Source: an uncultured Candidatus Saccharibacteria bacterium (GTDB lineage: Bacteria; Patescibacteriota; Minisyncoccia; Phycocordibacterales; Phycocordibacteraceae). From it: DNA of 64,000 bases. The notes under the pieces are model-generated. The model was not told the origin of the DNA, ran no database searches, and saw only the letters and a list, made by a program, of their open reading frames with translations. Position numbers and translations under genes: made by a program. Shown piece by piece: positions 39,179 to 57,435 of this stretch. The DNA is taken from assembly GCA_964618705.1 (NCBI GenBank), contig CAZUBJ010000001.1, positions 2,050-66,049 on the forward strand, read 5' to 3'. Numbering within the stretch: the first letter of the stretch is position 1; each line of letters begins with the position of its first letter.

Positions 39179-39201
39179 TAGAGAGTCGCATATAAAAAGA
39201 A

Positions 39202-39234
39202 ATCGCGCGTGTGGCCGGGGGCCGCACGCGCGAT
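39202..39234 (+). terminator. Rho-independent terminator after FKBP (ATCGCGCGTG-N13-CACGCGCGAT plus a GTTCTGTTCT tail)
   Basis: A 10-bp inverted repeat is preceded by AAAAAGAA and followed by a T-rich run. Confidence 0.5.
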
Positions 39235-39265
39235 GTTCTGTTCTAGACCCAGAAGGTCAGAACAG

Positions 39266-39904
39266 CTAGTCGTAGGTCGGGGGGTCTTCACCCGGGGCCA
39301 GCACCTTGATGGGCTTGCCCTTCATGCCGGGGAGTTGAATCCCCACCAGGCTGCCGACGATGTCGTCGTGCCGCTTGATCATCTCGGTCACGCAGTTTGC
39401 GTGAGCCGACATGAGGATCATGCCGACCTGCTGGTCCGCCGCCTCGAGGGAGGCGAACATGCCGGTGCCGGTGGTGAGGCCGACGACCTGCTGGAAGGTG
39501 TCCGCGGTCGGTGCCTTGAAGGCCAAGACCGTGCTGAGGACGGAGCCCAGGATTTGGGCACTGCCAGCACGTCCTCCACGCTTCAGGACCGTCAAGCCGA
39601 CTTCATCGACGTACTCGATGATGCCGGTGGCGCAGAAGTTATTGATTTGCGCCAGGGCGAAGTTCTCCTCCATGGTCAGGACGGTGCGCCGATGGAGCAC
39701 GCCCTTGGAGTCGAAGCCGTCGTCGATCAGCACCGTGTAGTTGATGGTGCGGAGCGCCGTGGTGATGGCGGCCTTGGGGTCCGGCAGTTGTTGGGCCGCC
39801 GCTTCACGAACGGAAGCGTCGGGTCCGAGTCCACCGCCGAGGCCTCCAGTGGTGCTGCAGGCAGCGAGCAGGCAGGTGGCGGCGACGAGGGCAAGAGCCT
39901 TCAT
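39266..39904 (-). CDS. Lipoprotein (hypothetical) in a GC-rich islet
   Basis: A signal peptide plus the lipobox LLAAC|S is present. The region 39200-39960 runs at about 62% GC, against about 50% in neighbouring genes. Confidence 0.5.
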   Translation of the reverse strand: MKALALVAATCLLAACSTTGGLGGGLGPDASVREAAAQQLPDPKAAITTALRTINYTVLIDDGFDSKGVLHRRTVLTMEENFALAQINNFCATGIIEYVDEVGLTVLKRGGRAGSAQILGSVLSTVLAFKAPTADTFQQVVGLTTGTGMFASLEAADQQVGMILMSAHANCVTEMIKRHDDIVGSLVGIQLPGMKGKPIKVLAPGEDPPTYD

Positions 39905-40091
39905 TCCGCGCGAGATCAAGGTATTCATCGAAGGTCTCCCTGTTGCGATGATTGGTTGATGCCCGTTCCAACGATATTCTGTGTGGAAAGAGCGTACTCC
40001 TATAGTATATACAAGTTAGACACTCTTGTCAAGTTGACTAGACGCCCGAAAATACTTGCTAAATGGGCGGTTCCCGCCTAGTCTCCTATAT

Positions 40092-41362: not shown

Positions 41363-43450
41363 ATGGCGAACTTTAAGCTCCATACCCCCTTTCCTCCAGC
41401 TGGTGACCAACCGGTGGCTATTGCCACACTCACCGAAGGATTGAAGGAGGGTATGCGTCACCAGACACTGCTTGGTGTGACCGGCTCAGGAAAGACGTTC
41501 ACTGCAGCAAATGTGATTGCTAACTTTGATAAGCCAACACTTGTGCTGGCACACAACAAGACGCTCGCTGCGCAGCTGGCCCAAGAGTACAAGGAATTCT
41601 TCCCTGAGAACGCCGTGCACTACTTTGTGTCGTACTACGACTACTATCAGCCGGAAGCGTACCTCGCGCATTCCGACACTTATATTGAGAAGGAAGCACA
41701 GATTAACGCGGAGATTGACCGTTTGCGTCATGCTGCTACCCAGGCGCTCCTGACGCGCAAAGACGTCATCATTGTGGCGTCAGTGTCTGCCATTTACGGA
41801 CTCGGCTCTCCTGCACAGTACGAGAAGGTGCACATAAAGCTCGTGAAGGGCGCTCCAGAGAATCGGGCTGCACTCATTCGTAAATTGATTGATATTCATT
41901 TCAACCGAACTCCAGCAGACCTTTCGCCAGGGCAGCTGCGCGCAGTAGGTAACACCGTAGAGCTTATGCCAGTGAACGAGCGTGCCCTCTATCGCATCTC
42001 CTTTGATGGAGAGAACATCGCCTTTATTGAACACCTCGACCCTGTCTCGCGCGCGAAAATTGGTGAGCTGGATTCCTTATTCATATTCCCTGCAAAGCAC
42101 TTTGTGGCTAACGAAGAGGAGCGCCTACGCGCCGTGGACGATATCAAGCAAGAGCTTGAGGAGCGCCTTGCAGAGCTGAAGCGCGAAGAGAAGCCGCTTG
42201 AGTACGAGCGGTTGAAGCGTCGCACCACGCACGACTTGGCCATGATTCGCGAAGTTGGGTACACCAACGGCATTGAGAACTACTCACGCCACTTTGACGG
42301 CCGTGCTCAAGGCGAGGCTCCCGACACACTACTGTCCTATTTCCCACACAAGAAGGACGGGTCCGCAGACTTCCTCACCATCATTGATGAGTCGCACGTT
42401 ACCGTGACCCAGATTGGTGGTATGTACGCGGGTGACCGCTCGCGCAAGGACGCGCTTGTTGAATTCGGCTTCCGCCTACCGAGTGCTCGCGATAACCGCC
42501 CACTTCGATTCGAGGAGTTTGAGGCGCGCGTAGGGCAGACCATCTATACAAGCGCTACGCCAGGTAATTACGAGCGCGAGCACAGCGTTCCGCCGGATGG
42601 GCAAGTGGCGGAGCAAATCATTCGCCCTACAGGCCTCATTGACCCTGAGCTCGTCATTCGACCGATTGTTGGTACCGATACGTATCCTGGGCAGGTGGCG
42701 GACTTTATCGCGGAGTCGGAGAAGACTATCAGTGGTGGCGGGCGTGTGCTTGCTACAACACTCACCAAGCAGATGGCAGAGGACCTCTCTGACTTCCTAA
42801 AGCAAAAGGGTATGAAGGCTGAATACTTGCACAGCGACATTAAGACCATTGAGCGTATCGATATTCTGACCGCTTTCCGCAAGGGCCTGTTTGACGTGCT
42901 GGTTGGTGTGAATCTGCTTCGCGAAGGACTCGACCTGCCAGAGGTGGAACTTGTGGGCATTTTGGATGCAGATAAAGAAGGCTTCCTGCGCTCAGAGACA
43001 TCACTCATTCAGACGATTGGACGCGCTGCGCGCAACGTCCTTGGGCGTGTGATTCTCTACGCAGACGGTATGACTGGTTCTATGGAGCGCGCCATTGGGG
43101 AGACAGAGCGCAGACGCACCAAGCAGCTTGCATACAACAAAAAGCACGGCATTACCCCTATCACGATTAAGAAGGAGATTCGCGACATTGCGGAGAGTAT
43201 GCGCAGCGAGCACCAGAAGACGGTGGATTCGCTCCTCGTACTCGATAGCAAACTATTTGAGGAGGACCCAGAGACGTTCATTGCAGACAAGCGTCTCCAG
43301 ATGGGTGAGGCGGTTGAAGCACTCGACTTTGAGACCGCCGCTATCATTCGCGACGAGATCTATAAGCTTGAGGGCAAGATTGTACCGCCACCTCCGTCAA
43401 AGAATCCGGTACATAAGAAAAAGAAAGGCAATTGGACCGTGATAGAGTAA
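41363..43450 (+). CDS. uvrB: Excinuclease ABC subunit B
   Basis: GVTGSGKT, DESH and helicase motifs are present, together with the C-terminal UvrB-UvrC interaction coiled-coil (AAIIRDEI). Confidence 0.9.
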   Translation: MANFKLHTPFPPAGDQPVAIATLTEGLKEGMRHQTLLGVTGSGKTFTAANVIANFDKPTLVLAHNKTLAAQLAQEYKEFFPENAVHYFVSYYDYYQPEAYLAHSDTYIEKEAQINAEIDRLRHAATQALLTRKDVIIVASVSAIYGLGSPAQYEKVHIKLVKGAPENRAALIRKLIDIHFNRTPADLSPGQLRAVGNTVELMPVNERALYRISFDGENIAFIEHLDPVSRAKIGELDSLFIFPAKHFVANEEERLRAVDDIKQELEERLAELKREEKPLEYERLKRRTTHDLAMIREVGYTNGIENYSRHFDGRAQGEAPDTLLSYFPHKKDGSADFLTIIDESHVTVTQIGGMYAGDRSRKDALVEFGFRLPSARDNRPLRFEEFEARVGQTIYTSATPGNYEREHSVPPDGQVAEQIIRPTGLIDPELVIRPIVGTDTYPGQVADFIAESEKTISGGGRVLATTLTKQMAEDLSDFLKQKGMKAEYLHSDIKTIERIDILTAFRKGLFDVLVGVNLLREGLDLPEVELVGILDADKEGFLRSETSLIQTIGRAARNVLGRVILYADGMTGSMERAIGETERRRTKQLAYNKKHGITPITIKKEIRDIAESMRSEHQKTVDSLLVLDSKLFEEDPETFIADKRLQMGEAVEALDFETAAIIRDEIYKLEGKIVPPPPSKNPVHKKKKGNWTVIE

Positions 43451-43456
43451 AGACAT

Positions 43457-44551
43457 ATGAGTCTTCGGGGCCTGTTCGGCGTCCTTCTGGTAGGTATTCT
43501 GTTAGCTACCTTTGCCGTAGTGCTTCCGTCGTTTCTGTTTCTGCAGAATCAACTCGGGGTGATATTTCCCGCTGAGCTTGTTTCGCAATCAAGTGGTTCG
43601 CTCTACATACTTCTGGCATGGCAGGCAATCATCACTATTGGTGTTCTTGCAGTCCTGCTCCTCGTGTTCTATGTACTGCTTGAACGCTTCATCATTACCC
43701 CGCTGAAGCTTGTAGTAAGTGCCATGGAAGCTTTTGCTGTCTCGGGCGAACGTCTTCCCCTTCCACGTATTAAGAACCTACCGCAGGAACTGCAGACGGT
43801 TACTAAGGCGTTTGATCAAGTTGTTGATAGGGTTGAGATTTCGCACAAGAAGGATGTGGAGGTCTCGCGTGTTAAGTCAGACTTTATATCAACCGCAGCG
43901 CACCAGCTACGAACACCGCTTACTGGTATTCGTTGGGCGCTTGAAGCACTAGAAAAGAGTGACTTGAGCGAGGATCACCAAGCACTTGTCAAAAGCGCCA
44001 AGGACAAAAGTCATGAACTGGTAGCCATTGTCGGCACGCTTCTTGATATCTCTGCTATTGAGTCCGGTAAATACAAGTACACGTTTGAGACAATCGCAAT
44101 CGAGGATATGGCGGAGGAAGTCGTCCGTGACTTTATGCCAATGGCACAGAAAGCCCAAGTCAGTGTGTATGTGGAGCGAAGCACTCAAACTGCACGCGTA
44201 CGAGCAGATAAGGAGCGCATCAAGTGGGTTTTGAATAACTTGATTGAGAATGCTATTCGGTACACACCAGCAGGAGGTACTGTGCGTATATCAAGTAGTG
44301 AGCGGTCGGGTAAGGTGTTTCTACAAGTCCGGGACAGTGGCATCGGTATAGCCCCGGAAGATCGCGACAACATCTTTGAGCGTTTCTACCGAGCCCAGAA
44401 CGCAATTGCTATCCAGAACGGAGGGAATGGGCTTGGTCTCTACATTGCCCGCACCATCGCCACCGACCACGGCGGGGACCTAACATTTGCAGCGAATGAG
44501 GACGGAATAGGGACCACGTTTACGTTGACTGTGCCAATTGCGGAGCGGTAG
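43457..44551 (+). CDS. Sensor histidine kinase (two TM helices, HisKA plus HATPase_c)
   Basis: The H-box is AAHQLRTPLTGI. The N, G1 and G2 boxes are NLIENAIRYT, DSGIGI and GNGLGL. Confidence 0.8.
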   Translation: MSLRGLFGVLLVGILLATFAVVLPSFLFLQNQLGVIFPAELVSQSSGSLYILLAWQAIITIGVLAVLLLVFYVLLERFIITPLKLVVSAMEAFAVSGERLPLPRIKNLPQELQTVTKAFDQVVDRVEISHKKDVEVSRVKSDFISTAAHQLRTPLTGIRWALEALEKSDLSEDHQALVKSAKDKSHELVAIVGTLLDISAIESGKYKYTFETIAIEDMAEEVVRDFMPMAQKAQVSVYVERSTQTARVRADKERIKWVLNNLIENAIRYTPAGGTVRISSSERSGKVFLQVRDSGIGIAPEDRDNIFERFYRAQNAIAIQNGGNGLGLYIARTIATDHGGDLTFAANEDGIGTTFTLTVPIAER

Positions 44552-44573
44552 GAGGGCGGTATACTTGGTACAT

Positions 44574-44966
44574 ATGACTGATACCAAATTCATTCTCGTG
44601 GTTGAGGATGATCCCATCCTTAAGAACCTGCTAGGGCATACACTTGCTGGTAAGTACCAGACGCTCTATGCGAATGACGGAAACGAGGCTATCGCGCTGT
44701 TTGATCAGTACAAGCCATCAATCGTGTTGCTCGATCTCATGCTGCCAACCATGGACGGGTTCGCAGTGCTTGAAAGTATTCGTAAGCACGAGGGGCCAGA
44801 GAAGAACACCCCCATCATCATTGTGTCTAACCTCGGACAGCAGAAAGACATTGAGCGCGCAAAGGCACTTGGTGCGAACGATTACCTTGTAAAGGCAGAA
44901 GTCGCCATCGAGGAAATCATCGGAAAGATTGAGAACTTGCTTGCACAACAAGCACCTGCTGCATAG
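44574..44966 (+). CDS. Response regulator, receiver domain only (CheY-like)
   Basis: ILVVEDD...DLMLP carries the phospho-acceptor Asp, and no output domain follows. I chose the start at ATG 44574. Confidence 0.75.
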   Translation: MTDTKFILVVEDDPILKNLLGHTLAGKYQTLYANDGNEAIALFDQYKPSIVLLDLMLPTMDGFAVLESIRKHEGPEKNTPIIIVSNLGQQKDIERAKALGANDYLVKAEVAIEEIIGKIENLLAQQAPAA

Positions 44967-44969
44967 AGC

Positions 44970-45764
44970 ATGTTTGGTGAACAAACTCCCAAGTCGATAT
45001 CGAAGCTACCCACCCAATCTGCAGGGGAGCACACACTTAAGCCCATAGCACTTAAGGAAGCAGACCCAACGCGTTCTTCTCAGCTGCCGCTTACAGGCAA
45101 TATGCAACATACAGTTGACTTTGATGCGAGAGCAAGACCACACACGATAGGCGTGCACGAGTCAGGAGAATATGTTGAATTGCGAAAGGATCCGAAAGTG
45201 CAAATGGCCGTGGCACTACTGGCTAAAGGCATTGTTCCTGTTGCCGACGTGGTGCAACTCCAAGACAAGCCAGAAAAGCATTACTCAAAAGTAATGCCGC
45301 TTGAGCGCATTGGGCAAAAGACAGCAGAGAGCGAACTGCTAGCGTATCTTGAGTTCATGAATCTTGTGTTTGGGGATGCAGACCATAGAAAAAGCCGCGG
45401 GGCACCTCATAACTACGTGTACACGGACGGGAAAGCAGCACTCTACGATTTTGGTGATGTAGATCTGAACATGGAGTTTCGAGGACTATTCCCACCGCGT
45501 CAGGCCGAGCACACTGTGGAATCCTTAGTTCACCTTAAAGAACTTTTGGCACAATTTCAGGCCAGAATTGAGGGAGAGGAGGGCGAGAAATTTATAGAAT
45601 CTGTCCTCGAGCATGCGCGCCTACAACCCTCAGATTTGCTTGGAAGAGAGGGTACGCGTTCCGTTAATGATATTCAGGAGGTGCTTCTGTCGCGCACAAA
45701 TCGGTCTATGCTTATTGCTGAGAACGAGCGACGAGAATTGCTGGCGGCATCGGAAGCCAAGTAG
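44970..45764 (+). CDS. Hypothetical protein (264 aa)
   Basis: It lies in the operon 3 nt after the receiver gene. I recognise no domain. Confidence 0.4.
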   Translation: MFGEQTPKSISKLPTQSAGEHTLKPIALKEADPTRSSQLPLTGNMQHTVDFDARARPHTIGVHESGEYVELRKDPKVQMAVALLAKGIVPVADVVQLQDKPEKHYSKVMPLERIGQKTAESELLAYLEFMNLVFGDADHRKSRGAPHNYVYTDGKAALYDFGDVDLNMEFRGLFPPRQAEHTVESLVHLKELLAQFQARIEGEEGEKFIESVLEHARLQPSDLLGREGTRSVNDIQEVLLSRTNRSMLIAENERRELLAASEAK

Positions 45765-45824
45765 AGTGGTCTGTGATACAGTGCACTAGTACCAGTCCCG
45801 CCACGGACTGGCCATTTCCATAGT

Positions 45825-48482
45825 ATGGCTACAGCAAAAAGGAAAGAAAGCTCACACGAGCAACATCAAGGCGCTGATTGGATATCAGTGAAGGGTGCTC
45901 GTACCCACAACCTGAAGAATGTCTCGGTAGAGATTCCCCGTGGCGTGATGACCGTGCTCACGGGACTCTCTGGTTCGGGAAAGTCCTCGCTCGCTTTTGA
46001 TACGATTTTTGCCGAGGGACAGCGCCGCTACGTGGAGTCCCTTTCTGCATACGCGCGTCAGTTCTTGAATCAGATGCAGAAGCCAGATGTAGACGAGATT
46101 ACCGGACTCTCTCCTGCAATTTCCATCGACCAGAAGAGTCGCTCCAACAACCCACGCTCAACGGTGGCAACCGTCACCGAGATATATGACTATCTGCGCG
46201 TCTTGTATGCACGTGCAGGTCAGCCGTACTGTATTCACCACGATGTACCCATCTCTCGCCTCTCAAAGGAGGAAATGATTCGTATGGTGTGGGAGCGTGT
46301 GCTCGCAAAGACCACTCAGCCTTCTAAGAAGAAGGGAGAGACAGAGACGGTTATGGGAATTGAGTTTGATAGAACACAGGTTGTTATACATGCGCCGGTA
46401 GTGGTTGGAAGAAAGGGTGAGTACTATCAGCTGCTCTACGACCTCCTCAGTAAAGGATACGAGAAGGTTTTGGTAGACGGGAAGCCGCACTCGCTGCGCG
46501 AGAAGCTCGTACTCGACCGTAACAAGCGTCACGATATTGATGCGGTGGTGGATTCCATCTTCGTTAGCGAGTTCGTGCGTACGCCAGAGCAGGCGCGTGA
46601 GCGCTTGAGCGAGGCGCTAGAGCTTGCACTCAAGGAAAGCGATGGGCTCGTAAAGATTCTCCATGCTGACGGAACATTTGAGACGCTCTCAGCAAAGTTT
46701 ATTTGTCCTGAGGACGGCACGTCGTTCCCTGAGGTGGAGCCACGCCTATTCTCTTTCAACAGTCCGTACGGGGCGTGTGTAGCGTGTAATGGGCTTGGTA
46801 CCAAGTCGCTGTTTTCAGACGAAGTATGTCCGGTATGTGAGGGCAAGCGTCTAAAACCAGAAGCGCTACGCGTGTACATCAAGCAAAAGAAGAGTAAGGA
46901 CCTCGGTATCAACGTGGTTGATTTCACCAACTTCTCTATTAAGGAGGCGAAGGAGTTCATGGACACTATTGAGTTGTCCGAAATGCGCATGGAAATTGCA
47001 GCGCCAATCATTCGTGAAATCACGAGCCGTCTGGAATTCATGCTGAATGTCGGTTTGGATTACCTGACACTCAATCGTTCTGCTGCAACGCTCTCGGGTG
47101 GAGAAGCACAGCGCATCCGCTTGGCTTCTCAGCTTGGTACGGGCCTTGTAGGCGCGCTCTATGTGCTCGACGAGCCTACCATTGGTCTACACCAGCGCGA
47201 CAACGACCGCCTGATTAATACGCTACTGACACTCAAGAAGCTCGGCAACACGATTCTCGTAGTTGAGCACGACGAAGACACCATCTACGCCGCTGACTAC
47301 ATTGTGGACATTGGTCCTGGAGCAGGAACCCACGGAGGTAACGTGGTGGTCTCTGGCTGGCTCGACGAGCTTCTAACTGCGCCAAAGAATGACTCCGGAT
47401 CGAAGACGCTTTCGTACCTGCGTGGAGAGACAGAGATTGAAGTACCTGAGGATCGCCGCACAGGAGAGAAGGGTTCTATCAAGATTAAGGGAGCTACGCT
47501 CCACAACTTGAAGAATCAGAACGTAGATATTCCGCTTGGAAAGCTCGTGTGTATCACCGGCGTGTCTGGCTCGGGCAAGTCTACGTTCCTCTACGACATT
47601 CTGCACAAGAACGTAGCGGCGCGTTTTGCAAAGCGCGAGGCAAAGCTTGAACACGTAGCAAGCATGACGGGTACGGAGTACGTGGGTCGCGTAGTGCTTA
47701 TTGATCAGTCACCGATTGGTCGCACGCCACGCTCAAACCCTGCCACCTACACGGGAGCATTCACGCATATTCGTGACTTGTTTGCAGCAACAAGCGAGGC
47801 TCGTGCACGCGGGTGGAAGCCAGGGCGATTCTCATTCAACGTTGCGGGCGGTCGCTGTGAGACCTGTCAGGGTAACGGCATGATTGCCGTAGAGATGCAT
47901 TTCCTACCAACCGTGTATGTGACCTGTGACGTCTGTAACGGTAAGCGCTTTATGCGTGAGACTCTTGAAGTCACGTTCCGTGGCAAGAATATCCACGACG
48001 TGTTGCAGATGACGGTAGAAGAGGCGGCAACTTTCTTTGAGGATATTCCTGCCATTCACGACCGTTTGGACTCACTAAAGCGGACCGGTCTTGAGTATCT
48101 GACCCTTGGTCAATCAGCTACGACTCTCTCGGGTGGAGAAGCACAGCGTGTGAAGATTGCATCCGAACTCTATCGCCCTATTACTATGAAGACGCTGTAT
48201 CTGCTCGATGAGCCAACGGTGGGTCTTCACTATGAGGATGTGCGCAAGCTGCTCGAGATTCTGCAGGAGCTCGTGCGCCGCAGCAACACGGTGGTGGTTA
48301 TTGAGCACAATCTAGACATCATCAAGTCCGCCGACCATTTGATTGATTTTGGTCCTGAGGGAGGTGTCGGTGGCGGCAAGGTGGTAGCAAAGGGAACACC
48401 TGAGGAAGTCGCGGAGGTAGAGGGCTCACACACCGGCCATTACCTGGCAAAGATGCTGAAGAAGGCGAAGAAGAGAAAGTAA
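45825..48482 (+). CDS. uvrA: Excinuclease ABC subunit A
   Basis: Two ABC modules ([19 protein letters not shown]; LSGGE signatures) and Zn-finger Cys clusters (CPEDG...C, CETCQGNG...CDVCNG) are present. Confidence 0.9.
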
Positions 48483-48545
48483 ACAAAAACCGCGAGGAGG
48501 AATGAATCCTCTCTCGCGGCCGCCCATTAGGGCTTGTTGATGTTG

Positions 48546-49049
48546 CTAGTCCGCGTTGCGGACAGCGACGATGACCCAGCAGATGAGGGCCAGAATGCCG
48601 CTCACCGACGCCCACCAGAAGAACAGGCCGTTGAAGGGGAAGACGCTGATGCCGTCCGGGGCGGTCAGGCTGTCGCCCGACTCCCCGTTATCGAGCAGGG
48701 TCTCCCGCAGCTTCATCAGCACATTGCTCTTCTCGAGCTGGCTGGCGTCCGGCTTTACGGACTTCAGCTCCTCCAGGGAGGCGCTGACGTTCTCGTACCA
48801 GAAGCCGACGTCGTTCTTGGGGCTGGGCCACAGGGCGCCGGTGTTGCCGGAGGTCATGGAGTTGGACTCCATGTAGGCGACGGCGACTTTCAGGTTCTGC
48901 TCGGCCAGTTCGATGGTGTTCGAGTTGGCGGCACGTTCCAGGTAGTTGCCGCAGCGCAGGTCGAACATGACCTTGCTGTAGGTAGCGCACCCGCCCCAGA
49001 CCAGAAAGACGATCGAGGACAGGATGGCGACGAGAGTCGAAGCACGCAT
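48546..49049 (-). CDS. Hypothetical membrane protein (N- and C-terminal hydrophobic segments) in a GC-rich islet
   Basis: The ORF is 167 aa at about 61% GC. Confidence 0.4.
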   Translation of the reverse strand: MRASTLVAILSSIVFLVWGGCATYSKVMFDLRCGNYLERAANSNTIELAEQNLKVAVAYMESNSMTSGNTGALWPSPKNDVGFWYENVSASLEELKSVKPDASQLEKSNVLMKLRETLLDNGESGDSLTAPDGISVFPFNGLFFWWASVSGILALICWVIVAVRNAD

Positions 49050-49202
49050 AAGATTTTAACCGGTTTCCCGGCTCCCTCACGAAATCGGTCGGTCCGATTC
49101 CTCTGCACATACTATAGAGTACTTATTGGTATTTGTCAAACATTGCTACCTAGATGGTACAGTTAAGTTTTAGAGAGTCACCCATTTACGAAAGGATGCG
49201 GG

Positions 49203-49487
49203 ATGACCCACGTTGCTCTTGATTGCCTGCAAATTGTCGGCCAGTTCAGCGAAGAGGATATCTTCACCACCGTCAGGAAGCACCTCTCCCAGTTTCCTGA
49301 CTTCCGTCCCGACTTCTCCGATGAAGACTTGTTCGCGTTCGCGTACGCCAAGGGACATGCTGTCTCTATGAATGCGCAGATGACGCGGGCTCGGACGAAC
49401 GGGGACTACGGACGCTGGACGAACGACAAGGTGCTGCCGTGTTATATGGGCAGCTGGTTCAACGAGGCGCGCAGATGCGCCGAGTAA
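49203..49487 (+). CDS. Hypothetical small protein (94 aa) in a GC-rich islet
   Basis: A hairpin follows at 49499-49520 (CGGGTCCGC-TTTT-GCGGACCCG). Confidence 0.35.
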   Translation: MTHVALDCLQIVGQFSEEDIFTTVRKHLSQFPDFRPDFSDEDLFAFAYAKGHAVSMNAQMTRARTNGDYGRWTNDKVLPCYMGSWFNEARRCAE

Positions 49488-49628
49488 GACCAGGGCTACG
49501 GGTCCGCTTTTGCGGACCCGGCTCATTTCTTGACCAGGCAAGTCAAAAGGCCCATACTCCCGCCAGTTGAGATCACACCCGTGACCACTGCGTTCTTTGT
49601 GGTTGCCATCAATTGGAAGGAGATAGGT

Positions 49629-50213
49629 ATGTTAGACCGACCCACACGCCCTCCGACAATGAGGGCTCTCGCCAAACAGGCGACCCGCGCCAAGGTTCTC
49701 GCCGCCGCCCGCGAGACGATCACCAATTGCGGGTACGAGGATACGACTATTCGCGACATCGCGAAGCTGGCCGGCATGTCGACCGGCGCCGTGTTCTCCA
49801 GTTTCGACAGCAAGGAAGAGCTGTTGATCGCCGTGCTTGAAGCGGAGCACGAGGAAGAAAAAGCGTTCATGAAGGACGTTGCGTTTTCCAACAACGACCC
49901 GGTGCAACGCATCGGGTCCATGCTCGCGGCCAACTACAGCTTCTGGCAGCAAAAGCTGAATCTGCTCAGCTGCAGGCTCAGTCTCGCGAGGAGCAATGAT
50001 GCCTTCGGAGAGTTCACCGACAAGGTCGACTGCGCTCTCACCAACGCCATTTGCGCCGTTCTTCTGGAGCACGGCGTCGTGGAGGCGGAACTGAAGGCTC
50101 AGGTGCTGCTGGCCGTGCACCTGCGCAACCTGCAGGTCCAAACCGGCTTCCCTTGGCACGTTGATCCGAAGATGCCCATCGGCCAGTCCGTAAACCTCGT
50201 TCTCCAGTCGTAG
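49629..50213 (+). CDS. TetR/AcrR family transcriptional regulator
   Basis: The N-terminal HTH is TTIRDIAKLAGMSTGAVFSSF. I chose the start at ATG 49629 with a GGAAGGAGA SD 5 nt upstream. Confidence 0.7.
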   Translation: MLDRPTRPPTMRALAKQATRAKVLAAARETITNCGYEDTTIRDIAKLAGMSTGAVFSSFDSKEELLIAVLEAEHEEEKAFMKDVAFSNNDPVQRIGSMLAANYSFWQQKLNLLSCRLSLARSNDAFGEFTDKVDCALTNAICAVLLEHGVVEAELKAQVLLAVHLRNLQVQTGFPWHVDPKMPIGQSVNLVLQS

Positions 50214-50303
50214 GTGACCGGCTTGAGACAATGGAGGAAACCCCGCGCTAGCGAGAGCTAGCGCGGGGAATTCATTTACAAACAGCTGTGAATAGAACGA
50301 CTT

Positions 50304-50330
50304 CCGGGTCCGCACAGAGTGCGGACCCGG
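50304..50330. terminator. Hairpin (CCGGGTCCGCAC-AGA-GTGCGGACCCGG) sharing its core with the hairpin at 49499-49520
   Basis: A 12-bp stem lies downstream of both the TetR gene (plus) and the 50340-50742 gene (minus). Confidence 0.5.
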
Positions 50331-50339
50331 TTAGATTGC

Positions 50340-50742
50340 TCAGGACGCGACGAGTCCGGCGATGCTCTGGATGGATTCAGCAGCGAAGTTCCTATTGCCT
50401 GCTGAGTACTCCCAGGAGACTTTTGCCCCAGATCGGTCAAAGGCGTAGGCGGGTGCCTTCCAGAGGAACTGACAGGAGAGGGCTTGCGCCACTTCTTCGT
50501 CGGTGAATGGTTCAATTACGGCGAGAACCTGGGCGACTGCAGGATCTGCATGTTTCTGTGCACGGTCGCACAGGTCGATAACAGGACCATCGTGACTCCC
50601 AATCCAGGCCTTCATCGTGAACGTTCTGGTCGACTCATCAAGGTCTAGGCGGATCTTTCCGAGAACACGGAATCCGCCCACCTCCTCAAAGAAGGGGTTG
50701 AGAACTTTTGCGACTTCTTCGTCTTTTTGTGATGGGAACATC
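50340..50742 (-). CDS. Hypothetical protein (133 aa; possibly SnoaL/NTF2-like) adjacent to TetR
   Basis: It starts at ATG 50742 with a GGGAGA SD 6 nt upstream. The region is GC-rich. Confidence 0.4.
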
Positions 50743-50839
50743 ACAATCTCCCTATATGGCTGACAGGTAGTCTGACTGCGATGGTACAGGAGCGGAAAGC
50801 CAATAGCAATCAAATTGAAAAGCAGTAGTATACAAATAC

Positions 50840-52093
50840 ATGGAACGCGCAGCACTAGAGAAGTTTGATTTACCCGACTGCCCGGGTGTGTACTTCTTTA
50901 CGCTCGGTAAGGGTGCGAATAAGAAGGTGCTGTATGTAGGTAAGGCAACCAGCCTGCGTGATCGCGTGCGCTCGTATTTCGATGCAGAGCTTATCGCCAC
51001 TCGCGGTCCGCGCATTGTAGATATGGTGACTGCTGCGGACGGTATTGATTACGAGACCACACCTACAGTGCTTGAGGCTCTCGTGCGCGAGGCTGCGCTT
51101 ATCCGCAAGCACGAGCCCAAAGCAAACGCGATGGGCAAGGATGACAAGACATTCTTGTATGCAGTGATTACGGACGAGGAAATCCCCCGCGTACTAGCAG
51201 TGCGTGGTGGAGAAATAGACTTTACGAAGAAAGTCACCAATGGAGTGAAGCTGAAGGCAATCCACGGCCCGTTTCCGTCGGGCTACCAGCTGCGCCAGGG
51301 GCTAAAGCTAATACGTAAGATTTTCCCTTTCTTTGATACTCCACGCCCGGTAGGCGAGGGCAACAAGCACACGCGCGGAAAGGTAGAGTTCAATCGCCAG
51401 ATTGGGCTCTATCCGCGCGACATGAATAGTTCGTCCTACGGACGCTCTATTCGGAACGTATCGCTCTTTCTTGCAGGAAGAGTAAAGACGCTGCGCGCCA
51501 CGCTCACCCGCGACATGAAGGAAGCTGCAAAAGAGGAGCGATTTGAGGACGCTGCCATTATCCGTAAGCAGCTATTTGCTCTAGACCACATTCAGGATGT
51601 GTCGCTCATTCGTGACGAACGCGAGGGCTCAGAGACCGGTCCACGTATAGAGGCGTACGACACGGCACATATTTCAGGAATGAATGCCATTGGCGTGATG
51701 GTGGTGGTAGAGGACGGATTGGCACAGAAGAAGGAGTATCGAATGTTTCGTATTCGTGAGCAGGGTGCAAAATCATTGAATGACGATATTGCTTCGTTGA
51801 AGCAAATTTTGACTCGTCGTTTGGGACACAATGAGTGGCCGCTTCCAAAAGCGTTTGTGGTGGACGGTGGCAAGACGCACAAGAAGGCCGCAGAGGAAGT
51901 GCTGGCGAGCGTAGGAGTAGGAATCCCTGTGGTGGCAGTGGTAAAGGACGAAAAGCACCGTCCTCGAGAGGTGCTCGGGTCCCTTCGGGCGGGGATTACT
52001 GACGCAGACGCAGTGCTTGCCAACAGCGAGGCGCACCGATTCTCCCTGGCCGCTCACCGAAAGGCTCGTAGCCGCGCCATGCGCGGAGCTTGA
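50840..52093 (+). CDS. uvrC: Excinuclease ABC subunit C, short form lacking the C-terminal (HhH)2 domain
   Basis: The GIY-YIG N-terminus is GVYFF...VLYVGKA. The UvrB-interaction motif (FEDAAIIRKQL) and the RNase H-like endonuclease domain (YDTAHISGMNAIGVMVV) are present. At 417 aa it is shorter than the usual ~600 aa. Confidence 0.75.
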   Translation: MERAALEKFDLPDCPGVYFFTLGKGANKKVLYVGKATSLRDRVRSYFDAELIATRGPRIVDMVTAADGIDYETTPTVLEALVREAALIRKHEPKANAMGKDDKTFLYAVITDEEIPRVLAVRGGEIDFTKKVTNGVKLKAIHGPFPSGYQLRQGLKLIRKIFPFFDTPRPVGEGNKHTRGKVEFNRQIGLYPRDMNSSSYGRSIRNVSLFLAGRVKTLRATLTRDMKEAAKEERFEDAAIIRKQLFALDHIQDVSLIRDEREGSETGPRIEAYDTAHISGMNAIGVMVVVEDGLAQKKEYRMFRIREQGAKSLNDDIASLKQILTRRLGHNEWPLPKAFVVDGGKTHKKAAEEVLASVGVGIPVVAVVKDEKHRPREVLGSLRAGITDADAVLANSEAHRFSLAAHRKARSRAMRGA

Positions 52094-52541
52094 TATTTTC
52101 CATAATGGGTGTAGATTTGCACTTACGCCCGGCTGCGGAGAAATCCGGTAAGCTTGGCGTCGCTCGCGGGCCTCGACATGAGAAGAGGCTCGCCGCTGCC
52201 CAGAACGGGTTTGCACACGTATCAACCGAGGAAAACCTACGCTCACTTGTGGGTATAGGGGGAAGCAGGAGGTTGCGTGGTCAATAAGGATAACTAAGAC
52301 GCCACTCCTCGCAACGTCGAGGAAGGGTGGAGGAAACCACGGAAGGGAGGAAGCGAATGCACAAACAAACTGCGTAGTGCGTGAGAGTGCTCTTGCTCGA
52401 GCAGGGACAGTCTCACGCGCTCCGCGAAATGACTTCTGGCGTCATATGCCAATGAAGTTGTGTTCTTCAATACAAACGGTTACCGACAGGGGCCCGCGCA
52501 ACGCGCACATGGCCCGAGGAACGTAGGGACCGAAGAAGAAC

Positions 52542-52566
52542 AGGCCGGACTTAAAAACTCCGGCCT
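52542..52566 (+). terminator. Hairpin plus T-rich tail (AGGCCGGA-N10-TCCGGCCT TTCGCATTTCC) immediately upstream of ddl
   Basis: An 8-bp GC stem lies 32 nt before the ddl ATG, at the end of a ~500-nt non-coding region. Confidence 0.4.
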
Positions 52567-52597
52567 TTCGCATTTCCATACTGGTATACTCACTACT

Positions 52598-53563
52598 ATG
52601 AAAGGCACGGTAGTTGCAGTTCTTCGGGGCGGTCCTTCACGCGAACATGACGTGTCGCTGAAGTCGGGCCACACTATTCTCACCCACCTTCCTCGTGAGC
52701 AGTTCATGCCGCGCGACATTTACATAGATAGACAGGGGATTTGGCACGAGCGCGGTATACCTACCACGCCAGAGCGCGTGCTACGAGGCACTGACGTGGT
52801 CCTTCTTGGGCTCCATGGGGAATATGGCGAGGATGGCGAGGTGCAGAAGCTGCTGGAGAAGTTTGGTGTGCCGTATGCAGGTACCAAATCTTTTGAGTCT
52901 TATGTTGCCATGCACAAGATGCTGTCTAAACAGAAGGCGATACATGCAGGATTGCTCACGCCAAAGTTTGCATATGTTGAAGAGTCGTCTGACATTGCGC
53001 AGGTAGCGCGCGAAGTGAATCGCACCTTCTTGCAGCCGGTCATTGTAAAGCCGGTGAAGTGGGGCTCGTCTGTGGGCGTGTCGTTTGTACATGGCTATGC
53101 GCCCCTTGAGGCTGCCGTACGCAAGCTTATGGAGGAAGGAGCAGGTGGAGTGCTTATCGAGGAGGTGATTCGCGGAACTGAGGCCACGGTGGGAGTCGTG
53201 GAGGGACTGCGGGGTGAGGCACTCTATGGCCTGCCGCCTGTAGAGATCATTCCGCCCGAGAAGGACTTCTTTTCGTACGACGCAAAGTACTCGGGAAGCT
53301 CTCGTGAGATATGCCCAGCGCGATTGCCTCGCAACATTACCGACGAGCTTATTCGCCACGCAAAGACCATGCATGGGGAATTGGGACTTCGCCACTACTC
53401 CCGTTCTGATTTCATTGTTTCTCCAAAGGGTATTTACTACCTGGAAACAAACACTCTGCCAGGGCTTACGCAGGAGTCCCTGTTCCCGAAGTCTTTGGCT
53501 TCAGTGGGGGTCACCTTGCCCGACTTTTTCACCCACCTTGCGGGTCTAGCGCTCACCAAATAG
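52598..53563 (+). CDS. ddl: D-alanine--D-alanine ligase
   Basis: The ATP-grasp domain has HGEYGEDGEVQKLLE and GSSVGV, plus the C-terminal ETNTLPGL. I chose the start at ATG 52598. Confidence 0.85.
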   Translation: MKGTVVAVLRGGPSREHDVSLKSGHTILTHLPREQFMPRDIYIDRQGIWHERGIPTTPERVLRGTDVVLLGLHGEYGEDGEVQKLLEKFGVPYAGTKSFESYVAMHKMLSKQKAIHAGLLTPKFAYVEESSDIAQVAREVNRTFLQPVIVKPVKWGSSVGVSFVHGYAPLEAAVRKLMEEGAGGVLIEEVIRGTEATVGVVEGLRGEALYGLPPVEIIPPEKDFFSYDAKYSGSSREICPARLPRNITDELIRHAKTMHGELGLRHYSRSDFIVSPKGIYYLETNTLPGLTQESLFPKSLASVGVTLPDFFTHLAGLALTK

Positions 53564-55683: not shown

Positions 55684-55770
55684 GGTTGCCTCCTTCTGGC
55701 TATCCACAACCTACAGCACATATTCTGGAGACGCCAGAGCCCCACTGTGCGCAGTGCTACTATTACCCCA

Positions 55771-57357
55771 ATGCTTCGGCGCATCATTGCCACTATAGAG
55801 TCCTCATCACTCACCCTGTATTCATTCATGGGTGCAGTGGCGGGAGTCGTCTTTCTCCGTTTCTTCCTAGAATCCTTTAGCGCCCGCACCCCTACGGGTT
55901 TTGTCGCAAGCGACGCGCCCACACTCGTTCACTACGGACTCTTCTTCCTGGCAGCGCTCCTATTGCATACACTCATCGTTGCGTTTGTGACGCGCGAGAA
56001 GATGCTCACTGTGCTCAAAATCAGCACGTACGCACTCCCGCTCATCCTGATTGCTCCGATCATCGACATATTCATGGGTGGGGGAACGATGGCGTATTTG
56101 ATACAGCCACTGCCAGAGCTGATTGCAGACTTCCTCACATTCTTTGGTCCACTACAGGGCTCAGGTGCTACGGTGGGTATTCGTATTGAGCTTGCCATAG
56201 TGCTTGCGGGTCTTGGAACTTATATATGGCTCAAGACTGCCAGTGTGTGGCGTACCGCGCTTGGCGTGTTTCTCTCCTATGTGGTGGTGTTTGGCATGGG
56301 CGCATGGCCAAGCCTGGTAGCCATTGCCACTGGCGGCACCGCGCATGTGATGTTCCTGGCAAGTGACTTGAGCAGCTCACTCATTGCACGCTCGTTCCTA
56401 CACCCAAGCGAGGTGTACAGCGGATTCCGTCTTCTTGAGATGTACTTCAGTGCCTACATGGCGCAGAGCATGTTCCTCCTCTCGCTTATCTGTGGCTACT
56501 TTGTACTGCGCTCTATTTCTCCACGCGTGGTGAAAGCAGTGAAGGCGAACATGCGCCCGCTACGTCTACTAAACTATATGGCGCTGGCGACACTGGGCTT
56601 TTTGCTTGCGCTCTACTTCGCTCCTATCACCTGGTCTGTCTACGACGTCATTACGGTGCTTGTCGCGTTTTCCTGTATCAAGCTTCTGTGGGTCTTTGCG
56701 GTCACCGCAAACGATTTGGGAGACGAAGATATCGACCGTATTTCAAATGCTTCCCGCCCTCTTATTACGGGTGCGATGAGTCGAACCGAAATGATCCAGG
56801 TCGCCGTAGGAGCTCTTATATTGGTGATTTTGGGAGGTCTCTCGCTTGGGTCCTATTCGCTGTTCTATCTCCTTATATATGTAGCCATCGTTGTGGTGTA
56901 CTCGTTCCCGCCACTGCGCCTGCGCCGATTCCCTGTGGTGTCGCACATGCTCATTGGCTTTGCGTGCCTGTGCATGGTCCTCATGGGATTCTTTCTCGCT
57001 TCACCCGCGCGCGAACTTGCGGCATTCCCACCATACGCTGCGCTTCTCGTTGTCATTATTTTTACGCTTGGACTTAACTTGAAAGATTTGAAGGACGAAG
57101 CGGGAGACCGAGCCGCAGGTGTGGTCACCATAGCGACGCTACTTGGTGCGAAGCGCGCACAGTATGTGATTGCTGCATTACTGTTTGTGGCAGCATTGCT
57201 TGTGCCATTTATGCTGCAGGAGCCGTCACTTTGGATTCCGTGCATTGTAAGCGGCGCCATTGTTGCCGCTGGAGTAGCGAAAGGGAAGCGGGAAAAGTTT
57301 GTTTTTGTAATCTATTTCTTATTTGTGCTGTACCTGATATTCAGACTGGTGGCATAG
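55771..57357 (+). CDS. Polytopic membrane protein: N-terminal ~240-aa multi-TM domain fused to a C-terminal UbiA-family prenyltransferase-like domain
   Basis: The C-terminal half carries UbiA Asp-rich motifs NDLGDEDIDRI (NDxxDxxxD) and KDLKDEAGDRAAG (DxxDxxxD). It has more than 12 TM helices. The track ORF start (55207) overlaps the sigma gene on the opposite strand, so I chose ATG 55771. Confidence 0.55.
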   Translation: MLRRIIATIESSSLTLYSFMGAVAGVVFLRFFLESFSARTPTGFVASDAPTLVHYGLFFLAALLLHTLIVAFVTREKMLTVLKISTYALPLILIAPIIDIFMGGGTMAYLIQPLPELIADFLTFFGPLQGSGATVGIRIELAIVLAGLGTYIWLKTASVWRTALGVFLSYVVVFGMGAWPSLVAIATGGTAHVMFLASDLSSSLIARSFLHPSEVYSGFRLLEMYFSAYMAQSMFLLSLICGYFVLRSISPRVVKAVKANMRPLRLLNYMALATLGFLLALYFAPITWSVYDVITVLVAFSCIKLLWVFAVTANDLGDEDIDRISNASRPLITGAMSRTEMIQVAVGALILVILGGLSLGSYSLFYLLIYVAIVVVYSFPPLRLRRFPVVSHMLIGFACLCMVLMGFFLASPARELAAFPPYAALLVVIIFTLGLNLKDLKDEAGDRAAGVVTIATLLGAKRAQYVIAALLFVAALLVPFMLQEPSLWIPCIVSGAIVAAGVAKGKREKFVFVIYFLFVLYLIFRLVA

Positions 57358-57435
57358 GCTGTTCTAGTTCGTTCAGTATATACGGCGCATAATTTGCTAT
57401 AGACAGCCAAAGCAGGGGGCGTACACTTATTTGCA

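What the first reader, a model, noticed from the sequence alone, without database searches (positions are those of the whole stretch)
48490..50760. A 2.3-kb GC-rich islet inserted between uvrA and uvrC, carrying a TetR regulator and three small genes, bounded by hairpins that share a GGGTCCGC core
uvrA ends at 48482 and uvrC starts at 50840. The sequence between them runs at roughly 60-62% GC, against about 50% for the flanking uvr genes. It encodes a membrane protein on the minus strand, a 94-aa protein, a TetR-family regulator with a strong SD, and a divergent 133-aa protein.

Two hairpins with nearly identical arms sit at 49499-49520 and 50304-50330 (cGGGTCCGC ... GCGGACCCg). They bracket the TetR gene. 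They could be terminators, or the ends of a small inserted element. The compositional jump argues for horizontal acquisition of this cassette into a conserved uvrA-uvrC junction.
Basis: seen in the sequence. Interest (0 to 1): 0.55.

Follow-up and report, generated by a model that had tools for sequence, protein, structure and literature searches.

The report
Variable small-gene slot between uvrA and uvrC
The DNA between two repair genes of an ultra-small (Patescibacteria) bacterium is a slot where relatives carry different small genes; only the TetR regulator looks foreign, and the hairpins are ordinary transcription terminators, so the finding is mostly ordinary.

Summary
The bulk GC contrast was overstated: the region is 57.6% GC and the window 53.0%, not 60-62% against 50%. 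At third codon positions the anomaly is strong for three of the four genes: GC3 is 0.92 for mem167, 0.75 for p94 and 0.79 for tetR, against 0.55 ± 0.05 for the window's long genes. p133 is normal.

This is not one inserted cassette. uvrA-uvrC-ddl order holds in about 80 related Paceibacteria-like genomes, but the uvrA-uvrC gap runs from -29 to 3547 bp and holds different small genes.
- **mem167:** sits at the same slot, same orientation and also GC3-rich, in four other related lineages.
- **p94:** present with hairpin 1 in the closest relative, L044, which lacks mem167, tetR and p133.
- **p133:** its only homolog sits in the same slot in L002.
- **tetR:** unique to this genome. The next-best hits are 36-39% identical, and every named one is alphaproteobacterial (Phenylobacterium).

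Hairpin 1 is the conserved p94 terminator, supported by compensatory changes. Hairpin 2 and a third hairpin terminate the convergent tetR/p133 pair. No integrase, transposase, flanking repeats or further hairpin copies were found.

This is an accessory-gene hotspot without mobile-element genes, between core genes. The persistent GC3 excess of mem167 and the shared hairpin arm remain unexplained.

The parts
45825..48482 (+). uvrA (885 aa), conserved left flank of the slot
   Evidence: NCBIfam PRK00349 UvrA 1238 bits. It is 98% aa identical to L044 and 65-93% to the other relatives.
48490..48519 (.). Hairpin between convergent uvrA and mem167. It acts as the intrinsic terminator of mem167, with a U-run on the minus strand.
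   Evidence: RNA fold of the minus-strand 76-nt segment containing it gives -32.3 kcal/mol, followed by UUUUUGUUU. The terminator scan lists an inner stem at 48494-48511 on the minus strand.
48546..49049 (-). mem167: a membrane protein with an N-terminal and a C-terminal TM helix around a four-helix bundle. It belongs to a Patescibacteria-wide family without a Pfam model. GC3 is 0.92.
   Evidence: 496 homologs, and every named one is Patescibacteria or CPR. AF2 mean pLDDT is 95.2, with no PDB fold match at E<=0.001. Orthologs of 64-73% identity sit in the same slot in L082/L083, L086, L214/L215 and L216. GC3.
49111..49139 (-). Promoter-like site for mem167 (TTGACA-17-TATAGT, 11 of 12)
   Evidence: Consensus scan. 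This is a prediction only.
49203..49487 (+). p94: a small lineage-restricted protein of unknown function, resident in the slot. GC3 is 0.75.
   Evidence: 75% identical to the L044 gene in the same place. Homologs are in the slot of L082 (40%), L015, L068 and L064. Only 12 cluster representatives among 1.84 billion proteins. Invariant C8, L43, W72, P79, S84.
49499..49520 (+). Hairpin 1: intrinsic terminator of p94 (CGGGTCCGC-TTTT-GCGGACCCG, then GCTCATTTCTT)
   Evidence: The stem is identical in L044 while the loop differs. Orthologous hairpins follow the p94 homologs in L015, L068 and L064. 98% of cells are paired and 4 of 9 pairs carry compensatory changes. Folding energy of the 46-nt segment is -24.9 kcal/mol.
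49530..49558 (+). Promoter-like site of tetR (TTGACC-17-CATACT). The perfect palindrome TTGACCAGGCAAGTCAA (49530-49546) overlaps the -35 box and is the candidate auto-operator.
   Evidence: Promoter scan. The palindrome occurs exactly once in the window; 1-mismatch matches total 4 against 2 expected. Operator function is inferred.
49629..50213 (+). tetR: TetR/AcrR-family regulator (194 aa), unique to this genome among the relatives sampled, GC3 0.79, probably foreign
   Evidence: PF00440 at 53.5 bits. Best non-self hits are 36-39% identical over 82-92% of the length, and the named ones are all Phenylobacterium or Proteobacteria. The top unnamed hit looked up, P0003, has Phenylobacterium-type synteny. 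Absent from the sampled slots and stored flanks of relatives. No plasmid hit above 33% identity among the records listed.
50241..50268 (.). tetR terminator hairpin (12-bp stem). It has a T-rich tail on the + strand and UUUCCUCC on the minus strand.
   Evidence: Top hit of the terminator scan. Folding energy of the 55-nt segment is -29.3 kcal/mol.
50304..50330 (.). Hairpin 2: terminator directly downstream of p133 on the minus strand. Together with 50241-50268 it forms a double bidirectional terminator between convergent tetR and p133. It shares an 11-nt arm with hairpin 1.
   Evidence: The terminator of the p133 homolog in L002 is CGGGTCGGGAC..GTTCCCGGCCCG, matching 9 of 11 positions of the hairpin 2 arm (read by eye).
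50340..50741 (-). p133: orphan protein of unknown function with normal GC3 (0.59) and SD GGGAGA
   Evidence: Only a self-hit in the 5.8-billion-protein search. One homolog (48% identity; phmmer 5e-37) lies in the uvrA-uvrC slot of L002 on the same strand. The single-sequence AF2 model is unusable (pLDDT 40).
50825..50831 (+). -10-like GTAGTAT 8 nt before the uvrC ATG, probably a leaderless uvrC promoter. This is the likely true right edge of block B.
   Evidence: GGTAGGAT lies 6 nt before the uvrC ATG in L044, L015, L068 and L064. Read directly from the sequence. Inference.
50840..52093 (+). uvrC (417 aa, short form), conserved right flank of the slot
   Evidence: Pfam UvrC_RNaseH_dom, UVR and GIY-YIG. 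44-98% identical in 80 related loci.

Best explanation
The uvrA-uvrC spacer of this Paceibacteria/Kaiserbacteria-like Patescibacterium is a lineage-specific accessory-gene hotspot between two conserved core genes. It is not a discrete inserted element.

In this genome it holds four independent single-gene transcription units of different ages.
- mem167 and p94 are older residents of the slot, shared with related species.
- p133 belongs to a rare slot family known otherwise only from L002.
- The TetR regulator is a genome-specific addition of probably foreign origin; the donor is unresolved.

Content most likely turns over by deletion and by recombination anchored in the conserved flanking genes. 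That step is inferred, not shown.

The GC-rich hairpins are Rho-independent terminators that insulate the units from each other and from uvrC.
- Hairpin 1 ends p94.
- 50241-50268 and hairpin 2 form a two-way stop between tetR and p133.
- 48490-48519 ends mem167.

TetR most likely represses its own promoter through the palindrome TTGACCAGGCAAGTCAA over its -35 box. This is inferred, and any further target is unknown.
For: - **Synteny and variability.** uvrA-uvrC-ddl order is conserved in the related loci. In the 74 scorable relatives and the window the gap ranges from -29 to 3547 bp, median 452.
- **Mosaic content.**
  - window: mem(-), p94(+), tetR(+), p133(-)
  - L044: p94 only
  - L082: mem + p91
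  - L086 and L214: mem + fam14
  - L002: p133 homolog + fam14
  - L004: fam14
  - L006: nothing (33 bp)
  - Other relatives carry a histidine phosphatase, a NUDIX protein or orphan ORFs.
- **Two blocks, not one.** Against L044, homology resumes at 49171-49528, so the extra DNA is two blocks.
- **No mobility signatures.** No Pfam match to an integrase or transposase among the window's slot genes or the 19 relatives' slot ORFs sampled. No bounding direct repeats, no adjacent tRNA, no Rfam family.
- **Hairpin 1 is a conserved structure** with compensatory changes. All four hairpins sit within about 60 nt of a stop codon, and two have U-rich tails.
- **tetR.** Absent from the sampled slots and flanks of relatives, GC3 0.79, next-best homologs 36-39% identical in a Phenylobacterium-type orthogroup.
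- **Not an assembly artefact.** Logan contigs of SRR12762304 match 47102-50395 and 50378-52313 at 100%.
- **Known pattern.** Hotspots without mobile elements between core genes are described (PMC5635113). HGT and islands in Patescibacteria, mostly between Patescibacteria, are described (PMC12455944).
Against: - No recombination breakpoint is visible. uvrA and uvrC are uniformly about 85% identical to L044 right up to the slot.
- The closest relative is a different species (about 85% nt identity), so the order of gains and losses cannot be polarised.
- mem167's GC3 of 0.92 is higher than simple vertical residence predicts.
- The identical 11-nt arm of hairpins 1 and 2 is not explained by 'independent terminators'. 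My rough estimate of chance is a few in a thousand, made post hoc.
- Hairpins 1 and 2 have weak U-tails.
- There are no expression data. Promoters, operator and terminators are predictions.
Confidence: 0.75

Rival explanations
1. One reading: a single 2.3-kb cassette acquired horizontally from a high-GC taxon and inserted between uvrA and uvrC, with the two GGGTCCGC hairpins as its ends.
For: The region is among the most GC-rich stretches of its size in the window. Three of the four genes have strongly deviant GC3. L006 and about 16 other relatives have an essentially empty junction.
Against: - The extra DNA against L044 is two blocks separated by homologous p94 + hairpin 1.
- mem167, p94 and p133 all have slot homologs in relatives.
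- The hairpins bracket only tetR, not the islet.
- Hairpin 1 is present in L044, which has no insert.
- mem167 homologs are all Patescibacteria.
- p133 has normal composition.
Confidence: 0.04
2. Narrow insertion model: the ancestor had p94 -> one bidirectional hairpin <- p133. The tetR unit (promoter, gene and its own terminator, about 49521-50303) inserted at that hairpin and duplicated it. Hairpins 1 and 2 are then the two copies of the target.
For: - The two hairpins lie exactly at the two ends of the tetR unit and share an 11-nt arm. No other pair among the 21 hairpins in 64 kb does.
- Homology with L044 ends 8 nt after hairpin 1.
- tetR is the one gene with no slot homolog.
Against: - No sampled genome carries p94 and p133 together, so the ancestral state is hypothetical and needs an extra loss in L044.
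- Identity is confined to the stem. Loop length (4 nt against 3-7 nt) and the flanks differ.
- The p133 homolog of L002 has its own similar CGGGTC... terminator, so hairpin 2 may simply have come with p133.
- This palindrome occurs on its own in more than 120 unrelated, mostly high-GC metagenome contigs, so it is a generic terminator-like sequence.
- No transposase or recombinase is present.
Confidence: 0.25
3. The GC3 excess of mem167 and p94 does not mark horizontal acquisition. It is a gene-specific equilibrium, kept up by codon selection in a strongly expressed envelope protein or by GC-biased gene conversion in a recombination-prone slot.
For: - mem orthologs in L082, L086, L214 and L216 keep GC3 0.76-0.79 against 0.51-0.57 in their own uvrA/uvrC.
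- Four-fold sites of uvrA/uvrC are nearly saturated between these genomes (identity 0.35-0.38).
- mem167 has a near-consensus promoter.
- Its four-fold sites are C-skewed (C 60%, G 33%).
- In distant CPR genomes the mem gene has the GC3 of its host.
Against: - No highly expressed marker gene is in the window to show that C/G-ending codons are the preferred ones.
- rpoB/rpoC-sized genes are at 0.46-0.56.
- The flanking ends of uvrA and uvrC are not GC-enriched, as biased conversion would predict.
- p133 in the same slot is normal.
- Repeated replacement from GC-rich clade members (for example L068, uvrC GC3 0.80) would give the same pattern.
Confidence: 0.4
4. Assembly or binning chimera: the GC-rich segment belongs to another organism and was joined in error.
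For: The source is a metagenome-assembled contig. Logan contigs break inside p133.
Against: - Logan contigs match 47102-50395 (uvrA 3' end through tetR into p133) and 50378-52313 (p133 into uvrC) at 100%.
- mem and p94 occupy the same slot in several independent assemblies.
Confidence: 0.02

Closest known systems
HGT hotspots without mobile genetic elements between core genes (Oliveira, Touchon, Cury & Rocha 2017, PMC5635113)
   Same: An interval between two conserved, syntenic core genes. Gene content turns over quickly between related genomes and consists mostly of small genes of unknown function. No integrase or transposase is present.
   Different: That study defined hotspots statistically within species pan-genomes of cultured bacteria. 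Here the comparison is across species- to family-level MAGs of Patescibacteria. Recombination in the flanks was looked for against one relative and not seen.
TetR/AcrR-family one-component repressors (Pfam PF00440), such as TtgR, AcrR and ScbR-like receptors
   Same: N-terminal HTH above the Pfam threshold, a length of 194 aa, full-length similarity to annotated TetR/AcrR proteins, and a perfect palindrome over its own -35 box.
   Different: There is no divergently transcribed target gene. The best characterised relatives score far below the equivalog cut-offs (ScbR model 60 bits against 150). The ligand and regulon are unknown. No other Patescibacteria protein appears among the named hits.
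Rho-independent (intrinsic) terminators, including bidirectional ones between convergent genes
   Same: GC-rich perfect stems of 9-12 bp with loops of 3-4 nt, placed 12-60 nt after stop codons. Two of them have U-rich tails. Hairpin 1 is conserved with compensatory changes.
   Different: Hairpins 1 and 2 have poor U-tracts. Two terminators of different genes share an identical 11-nt arm, which is unusual.
Genomic islands and horizontally transferred genes of Patescibacteria (PMC12455944)
   Same: A compositionally atypical segment in a streamlined CPR genome, containing genes with relatives inside Patescibacteria and one gene with relatives outside the phylum.
   Different: Only 2.4 kb, with no mobility genes, and made of parts of different ages. 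It is well below the size of islands usually called by island predictors.

Membership tests
TetR/AcrR transcriptional regulators | N-terminal TetR-type helix-turn-helix (PF00440) above the gathering score | tested here: met
   53.5 bits against a cut-off of 24, residues 24-69.
TetR/AcrR transcriptional regulators | About 190-220 aa with a C-terminal helical ligand-binding or dimerisation domain | tested here: met
   194 aa. It aligns over 82-92% of its length with 215-217-aa annotated TetR/AcrR proteins. PDB TetR chains align up to residue 188 (3him). No structure was predicted.
TetR/AcrR transcriptional regulators | Palindromic operator at its own or a target promoter | tested here: inconclusive
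   The perfect palindrome TTGAC-N7-GTCAA overlaps the predicted -35 box and is unique in the window. Binding was not tested.
TetR/AcrR transcriptional regulators | Adjacent, usually divergent, regulated gene | tested here: not met
   The upstream neighbour p94 is co-directional and separated by a terminator. The downstream neighbour p133 is convergent.
Integrative mobile element or genomic island | Integrase, recombinase or transposase gene | tested here: not met
   No Pfam, NCBIfam or PHROG hit other than TetR in the four genes. None among the 19 relatives' slot ORFs sampled.
Integrative mobile element or genomic island | Flanking direct repeats (att sites or target duplication) or insertion next to a tRNA gene | tested here: not met
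   No direct repeat bounds 48483-50839 or either block. The nearest tRNA is at 53617, beyond uvrC and ddl.
Integrative mobile element or genomic island | Present or absent as one unit among relatives | tested here: not met
   The genes occur in different combinations in different relatives.
Integrative mobile element or genomic island | Atypical composition | tested here: met
   GC3 z-scores of +8.0, +4.4 and +5.4 for mem167, p94 and tetR. p133 is normal.
HGT hotspot lacking mobile elements (PMC5635113) | Interval bounded by the same two core genes across genomes | tested here: met
   uvrA and uvrC are adjacent and co-oriented in the 74 scorable relatives and the window.
HGT hotspot lacking mobile elements (PMC5635113) | High diversity and turnover of accessory genes in that interval | tested here: met
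   At least 10 unrelated ORF families and gap sizes of -29 to 3547 bp.
HGT hotspot lacking mobile elements (PMC5635113) | Homologous recombination in the flanking core genes | tested here: inconclusive
   Sliding identity to L044 is flat, with no breakpoint. Only one close genome was available and no formal recombination test was run.
Intrinsic terminator | GC-rich stem-loop just downstream of a stop codon, followed by a U-tract | tested here: met
   All four hairpins lie 12-60 nt after a stop codon. The terminator scan reports 20 sites against 7.1 expected in 45000-53000. 50241-50268 and 49499-49520 are its two best-ranked hits. U-tracts are good for 48490-48519(-) and 50241-50268, and weak for hairpins 1 and 2.
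Intrinsic terminator | Structure conserved in orthologous positions with compensatory substitutions | tested here: met
   For hairpin 1 with its four orthologs and hairpin 2, 98.1% of cells are paired and 4 of 9 pairs change on both sides. No shuffle of 500 reaches the observed covariation score. The sample is small (six sequences).
REP/MITE-like dispersed palindromic repeats | Many copies dispersed in intergenic regions of the genome | tested here: not met
   Two copies in 64 kb. The only copy in the 81 loci then held is the L044 ortholog. The rest of the genome is not available.

The most novel reading that the evidence does not exclude
The uvrA|uvrC slot of this Paceibacteria clade may be a dedicated exchange site. 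Small self-contained units (promoter, gene, GC-rich terminator) would be swapped between species by transformation and recombination anchored in the near-invariant uvrA and uvrC. Under this reading, the lasting GC3 excess of its residents (mem167 0.76-0.92 in five lineages despite saturated synonymous divergence) is the footprint of repeated GC-biased conversion or repeated import from GC-rich clade members. The shared hairpin arm is the scar of a terminator-targeted insertion.
Probability: 0.12. Interest if true: 0.5.

Novelty: new member of a known kind. Interest (0 to 1): 0.25.

Why it matters
This matters little beyond the lineage. It gives a clean, well-sampled example of accessory genes accumulating at one fixed interval between core repair genes in genome-reduced, uncultured Patescibacteria, without any mobile-element machinery.

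It also flags three uncharacterised protein families for people annotating CPR genomes:
- a CPR-wide membrane-anchored four-helix-bundle protein
- the p94 family
- a roughly 160-aa family (fam14)

It also flags a rare TetR regulator in this group. The persistent GC3 excess of one resident gene across species is a small puzzle. It bears on using composition as an HGT marker: here composition alone would have mis-called an old resident as a recent import.

Tried and rejected
- **Metagenome scan for the hairpin.** Median GC of the hits is 69%, and none encodes p94, p133, mem167 or uvrC. The palindrome is therefore generic.
- **Hairpin as TetR operator.** Rejected. Half-site spacing differs between the two copies (4 nt against 7 nt between the GGGTCCGC/GCGGACCC halves), and hairpin 1 exists in L044, which has no tetR.
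- **p133 function.** No Pfam, NCBIfam, PHROG or PADLOC hit. Only a self-hit in the protein database. The single-sequence AF2 model has pLDDT 40 and is unusable.
- **p94 function.** No family hit, and no PDB hit even with a profile. It is unrelated to fam14 by hhalign (probability 0.2%).
- **mem167 fold.** The model is excellent, but Foldseek against the PDB returns only generic four-helix bundles (BRIL fusions, E >= 0.05). The AFDB library was not available.
- **Defence system or phage origin.** No credible PADLOC or PHROG hits.
- **Plasmid origin of tetR.** No hit above 33% identity among the records listed.
- **Known RNA families in 48000-51500.** None at E <= 1.
- **Recombination breakpoints in the uvrA and uvrC flanks against L044.** None seen.
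- **Exact-sequence look-up of the 194-aa TetR.** It failed because gene callers start the gene at the second Met (184 aa, P0001).


Full report
**What is in the sequence**

The window comes from a Patescibacteria genome of the Paceibacteria/Kaiserbacteria type, judging by the titles of the 80 loci found with its UvrC. uvrA is 45825-48482 and uvrC is 50840-52093. Both are on the + strand and securely identified.

The wider context is a repair cluster: uvrB, a histidine kinase, a response regulator, a 264-aa ORF, uvrA, the gap, uvrC, then ddl.
- mem167, 48546-49049 (-)
- p94, 49203-49487 (+)
- a TetR-family regulator, 49629-50213 (+), PF00440 at 53.5 bits, with AAGGAG 6 nt before the ATG
- p133, 50340-50741 (-)

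Both hairpins are at the stated coordinates and share the arm TGCGGACCCGG. Two more strong hairpins were not mentioned. One is at 48490-48519, between uvrA and mem167. The other is at 50241-50268, directly after tetR.

**Composition**

The bulk GC contrast is real but smaller than claimed. The region is 57.6% GC and the window 53.0%; uvrA is 52.7% and uvrC 54.5%. The region is among the most GC-rich stretches of its size in the window, in the top 0.4%.

The signal is concentrated at synonymous sites. The reference is 31 long genes with GC3 of 0.548 ± 0.046 and a maximum of 0.617.

| Gene | GC3 | z-score |
|---|---|---|
| mem167 | 0.92 | +8.0 |
| p94 | 0.75 | +4.4 |
| tetR | 0.79 | +5.4 |
| p133 | 0.59 | +0.9 (normal) |

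At four-fold sites mem167 has A 1%, C 60%, G 33% and T 7%. The genome has 24, 25, 24 and 27%. The 210-aa + strand ORF over mem167 is an antisense by-product of this composition.

**Comparison with relatives**

uvrA-uvrC-ddl order holds in the related loci. In the 74 scorable relatives and the window, the gap varies from an overlap of 29 bp to 3547 bp, with a median of 452 bp. ORFs in the gaps fall into many unrelated families. The content is a mosaic:

| Genome | Genes in the slot |
|---|---|
| window | mem(-), p94(+), tetR(+), p133(-) |
| L044 | p94 only |
| L082/L083 | mem(-), p91(+) |
| L086, L214/L215 | mem(-), fam14(+) |
| L216 | mem next to uvrA (contig too short to show more) |
| L002 | p133 homolog(-), fam14(+) |
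| L004 | fam14 |
| L006 and about 16 others | nothing |

Other relatives carry a histidine phosphatase, a NUDIX protein or orphan ORFs. None of the slot ORFs I sampled matched an integrase or transposase.

The closest relative is L044, with UvrA 98% and UvrC 96% identical at the protein level and about 85% at the nucleotide level. Against it, homology stops at the uvrA stop codon, resumes at 49171-49528 (p94 plus hairpin 1), stops again, and resumes at the uvrC start. The extra DNA is therefore two separate blocks: 48475-49170 (mem167) and 49529-50839 (tetR + p133).

**The four genes**

*mem167* belongs to a large, well-conserved family with no Pfam model.
- It has 496 hits, and every named one is Patescibacteria or CPR.
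- The AlphaFold model is confident (pLDDT 95). It shows an N-terminal and a C-terminal transmembrane helix around a four-helix bundle, with no informative PDB match.
- Its nearest relatives (64-73% identity) all sit in the same slot and orientation. Distant family members in Peregrinibacteria and Doudnabacteria lie elsewhere in their genomes.

*p94* is a tiny family, with 12 cluster representatives among 1.84 billion proteins. It has an invariant Cys, Trp, Pro and Ser.

*p133* has only one homolog anywhere, in the slot of L002.

*tetR* has no homolog in the slot or stored flanks of any sampled relative. After its own genome, the best hits are 36-39% identical. Every named one is Phenylobacterium or Proteobacteria. 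The top unnamed hit I looked up (P0003) has the same Phenylobacterium-type neighbourhood. That orthogroup has GC3 of 0.89. I conclude that tetR is probably of foreign, high-GC origin. The identity is too low to name a donor.

**The hairpins**

Hairpin 1 is the terminator of p94.
- It follows the stop codon by 12 nt.
- Its stem is identical in L044, while the loop differs.
- The p94 homologs of L015, L068 and L064 carry the orthologous GGGGCCCGC..GCGGGCC version.
- In the six-sequence alignment (hairpin 1, its four orthologs and hairpin 2), 98% of cells pair and 4 of 9 pairs show changes on both sides.

Hairpin 2 lies 10 nt downstream of the p133 stop codon on the minus strand. Together with the tetR terminator at 50241-50268, it forms a double, two-way stop between the convergent genes. 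The hairpin at 48490-48519 is a classical terminator for mem167, with a UUUUUGUUU tail.

The palindrome has no other copy in the window. Its only copy in the 81 loci then held is the L044 ortholog. A metagenome scan returned more than 120 unrelated, mostly high-GC contigs. No Rfam family matches the region. There is thus no evidence for a repeat family or for element ends.

**What stays open**

1. *Why hairpins 1 and 2 share an 11-nt arm.* There are three options:
   - The tetR unit inserted into an ancestral shared p94/p133 terminator and duplicated it. The geometry fits, but no genome shows the ancestral state.
   - Short gene conversion occurred between two already similar terminators. The p133 homolog of L002 ends in CGGGTCGGGAC..., which matches 9 of 11 positions.
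   - It is coincidence among generic GC-rich stems.

2. *Why mem167 stays GC3-rich.* Four-fold sites of uvrA and uvrC are close to saturation between the window and L082 (identity 0.35-0.38) and well diverged from L044 (0.49-0.50). Yet mem orthologs hold GC3 of 0.76-0.79 in four other lineages and 0.92 here. By my rough decay estimate, a passive relic of one ancient transfer should have decayed further. That leaves gene-specific selection, biased conversion, or repeated replacement from GC-rich clade members. I could not separate these.

**Mechanism I commit to**

This is an accessory-gene hotspot between core genes, populated by independent, terminator-insulated single-gene units. Turnover is by deletion and flank-anchored recombination. 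The turnover is shown; the mechanism is inferred.

TetR probably autoregulates through the unique palindrome TTGACCAGGCAAGTCAA over its -35 box. This is inferred. uvrC keeps its own promoter right at the ATG.

This matches the known category of hotspots without mobile elements (PMC5635113) and the reported prevalence of HGT in Patescibacteria (PMC12455944).

**Verdict**

- The finding is a new member of a known kind, of low to moderate interest.

Noticed in passing
window 50825-50839; L044 9985-10000; L015, L068, L064 just upstream of uvrC: uvrC appears to be transcribed as a leaderless or near-leaderless mRNA. A -10-like GGTAGGAT lies 6 nt before the ATG in four relatives, and GTAGTAT lies 8 nt before it in the window. 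None has a Shine-Dalgarno sequence.
   Followed up: partly
window 50840-52093 and all 80 related loci: UvrC is a short form (about 415-447 aa) with GIY-YIG, UVR and RNaseH-like domains. No Pfam hit covers a C-terminal helix-hairpin-helix region.
   Followed up: no
window 41363-45764; L082 9282-12501: A histidine kinase and response regulator pair, plus a 264-aa ORF without a Pfam hit, lies between uvrB and uvrA. The kinase/regulator pair occupies the same place in L082.
   Followed up: no
window 39001-40081: This is the only other stretch at about 60% GC. ORF 39209-40081 (290 aa) has GC1 of 0.75 and no Pfam hit, and follows an FKBP-type isomerase gene.
   Followed up: no
window 55720-61272 against L044 15589-16385: A second variable region: 5.5 kb in the window against 0.8 kb in L044. 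It covers part of a 716-aa UbiA-domain gene and most of a 1383-aa ORF (57436-61587).
   Followed up: no
slot of L002, L004, L007-L010, L013, L016, L018, L020, L024, L035, L049, L050, L086, L214, L215: An uncharacterised family of about 155-175 aa ('fam14') lies directly upstream of and co-directional with uvrC. It has invariant Pro, Trp, Cys, Arg and Asp residues and a conserved RMP motif. It has no Pfam hit and is unrelated to p94.
   Followed up: partly
window 48534-49166 (+): A 210-aa ORF lies antisense to mem167 with GC1 of 0.80. It is a shadow ORF created by the GC3-rich sense gene, not a gene.
   Followed up: yes
window 50378-50395 (L212/L001 overlap): The Logan assembly of SRR12762304 breaks inside the 3' end of p133, with only 18 bp of overlap. 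This may reflect strain variation or a coverage change at that point.
   Followed up: no
L213 4001-5309; L217 6001-7304: The Phenylobacterium-type TetR orthogroup closest to the window's TetR always occurs as a tandem pair of TetR genes. The pair sits next to HIG_1_N, cobalamin adenosyltransferase and ETF genes.
   Followed up: no
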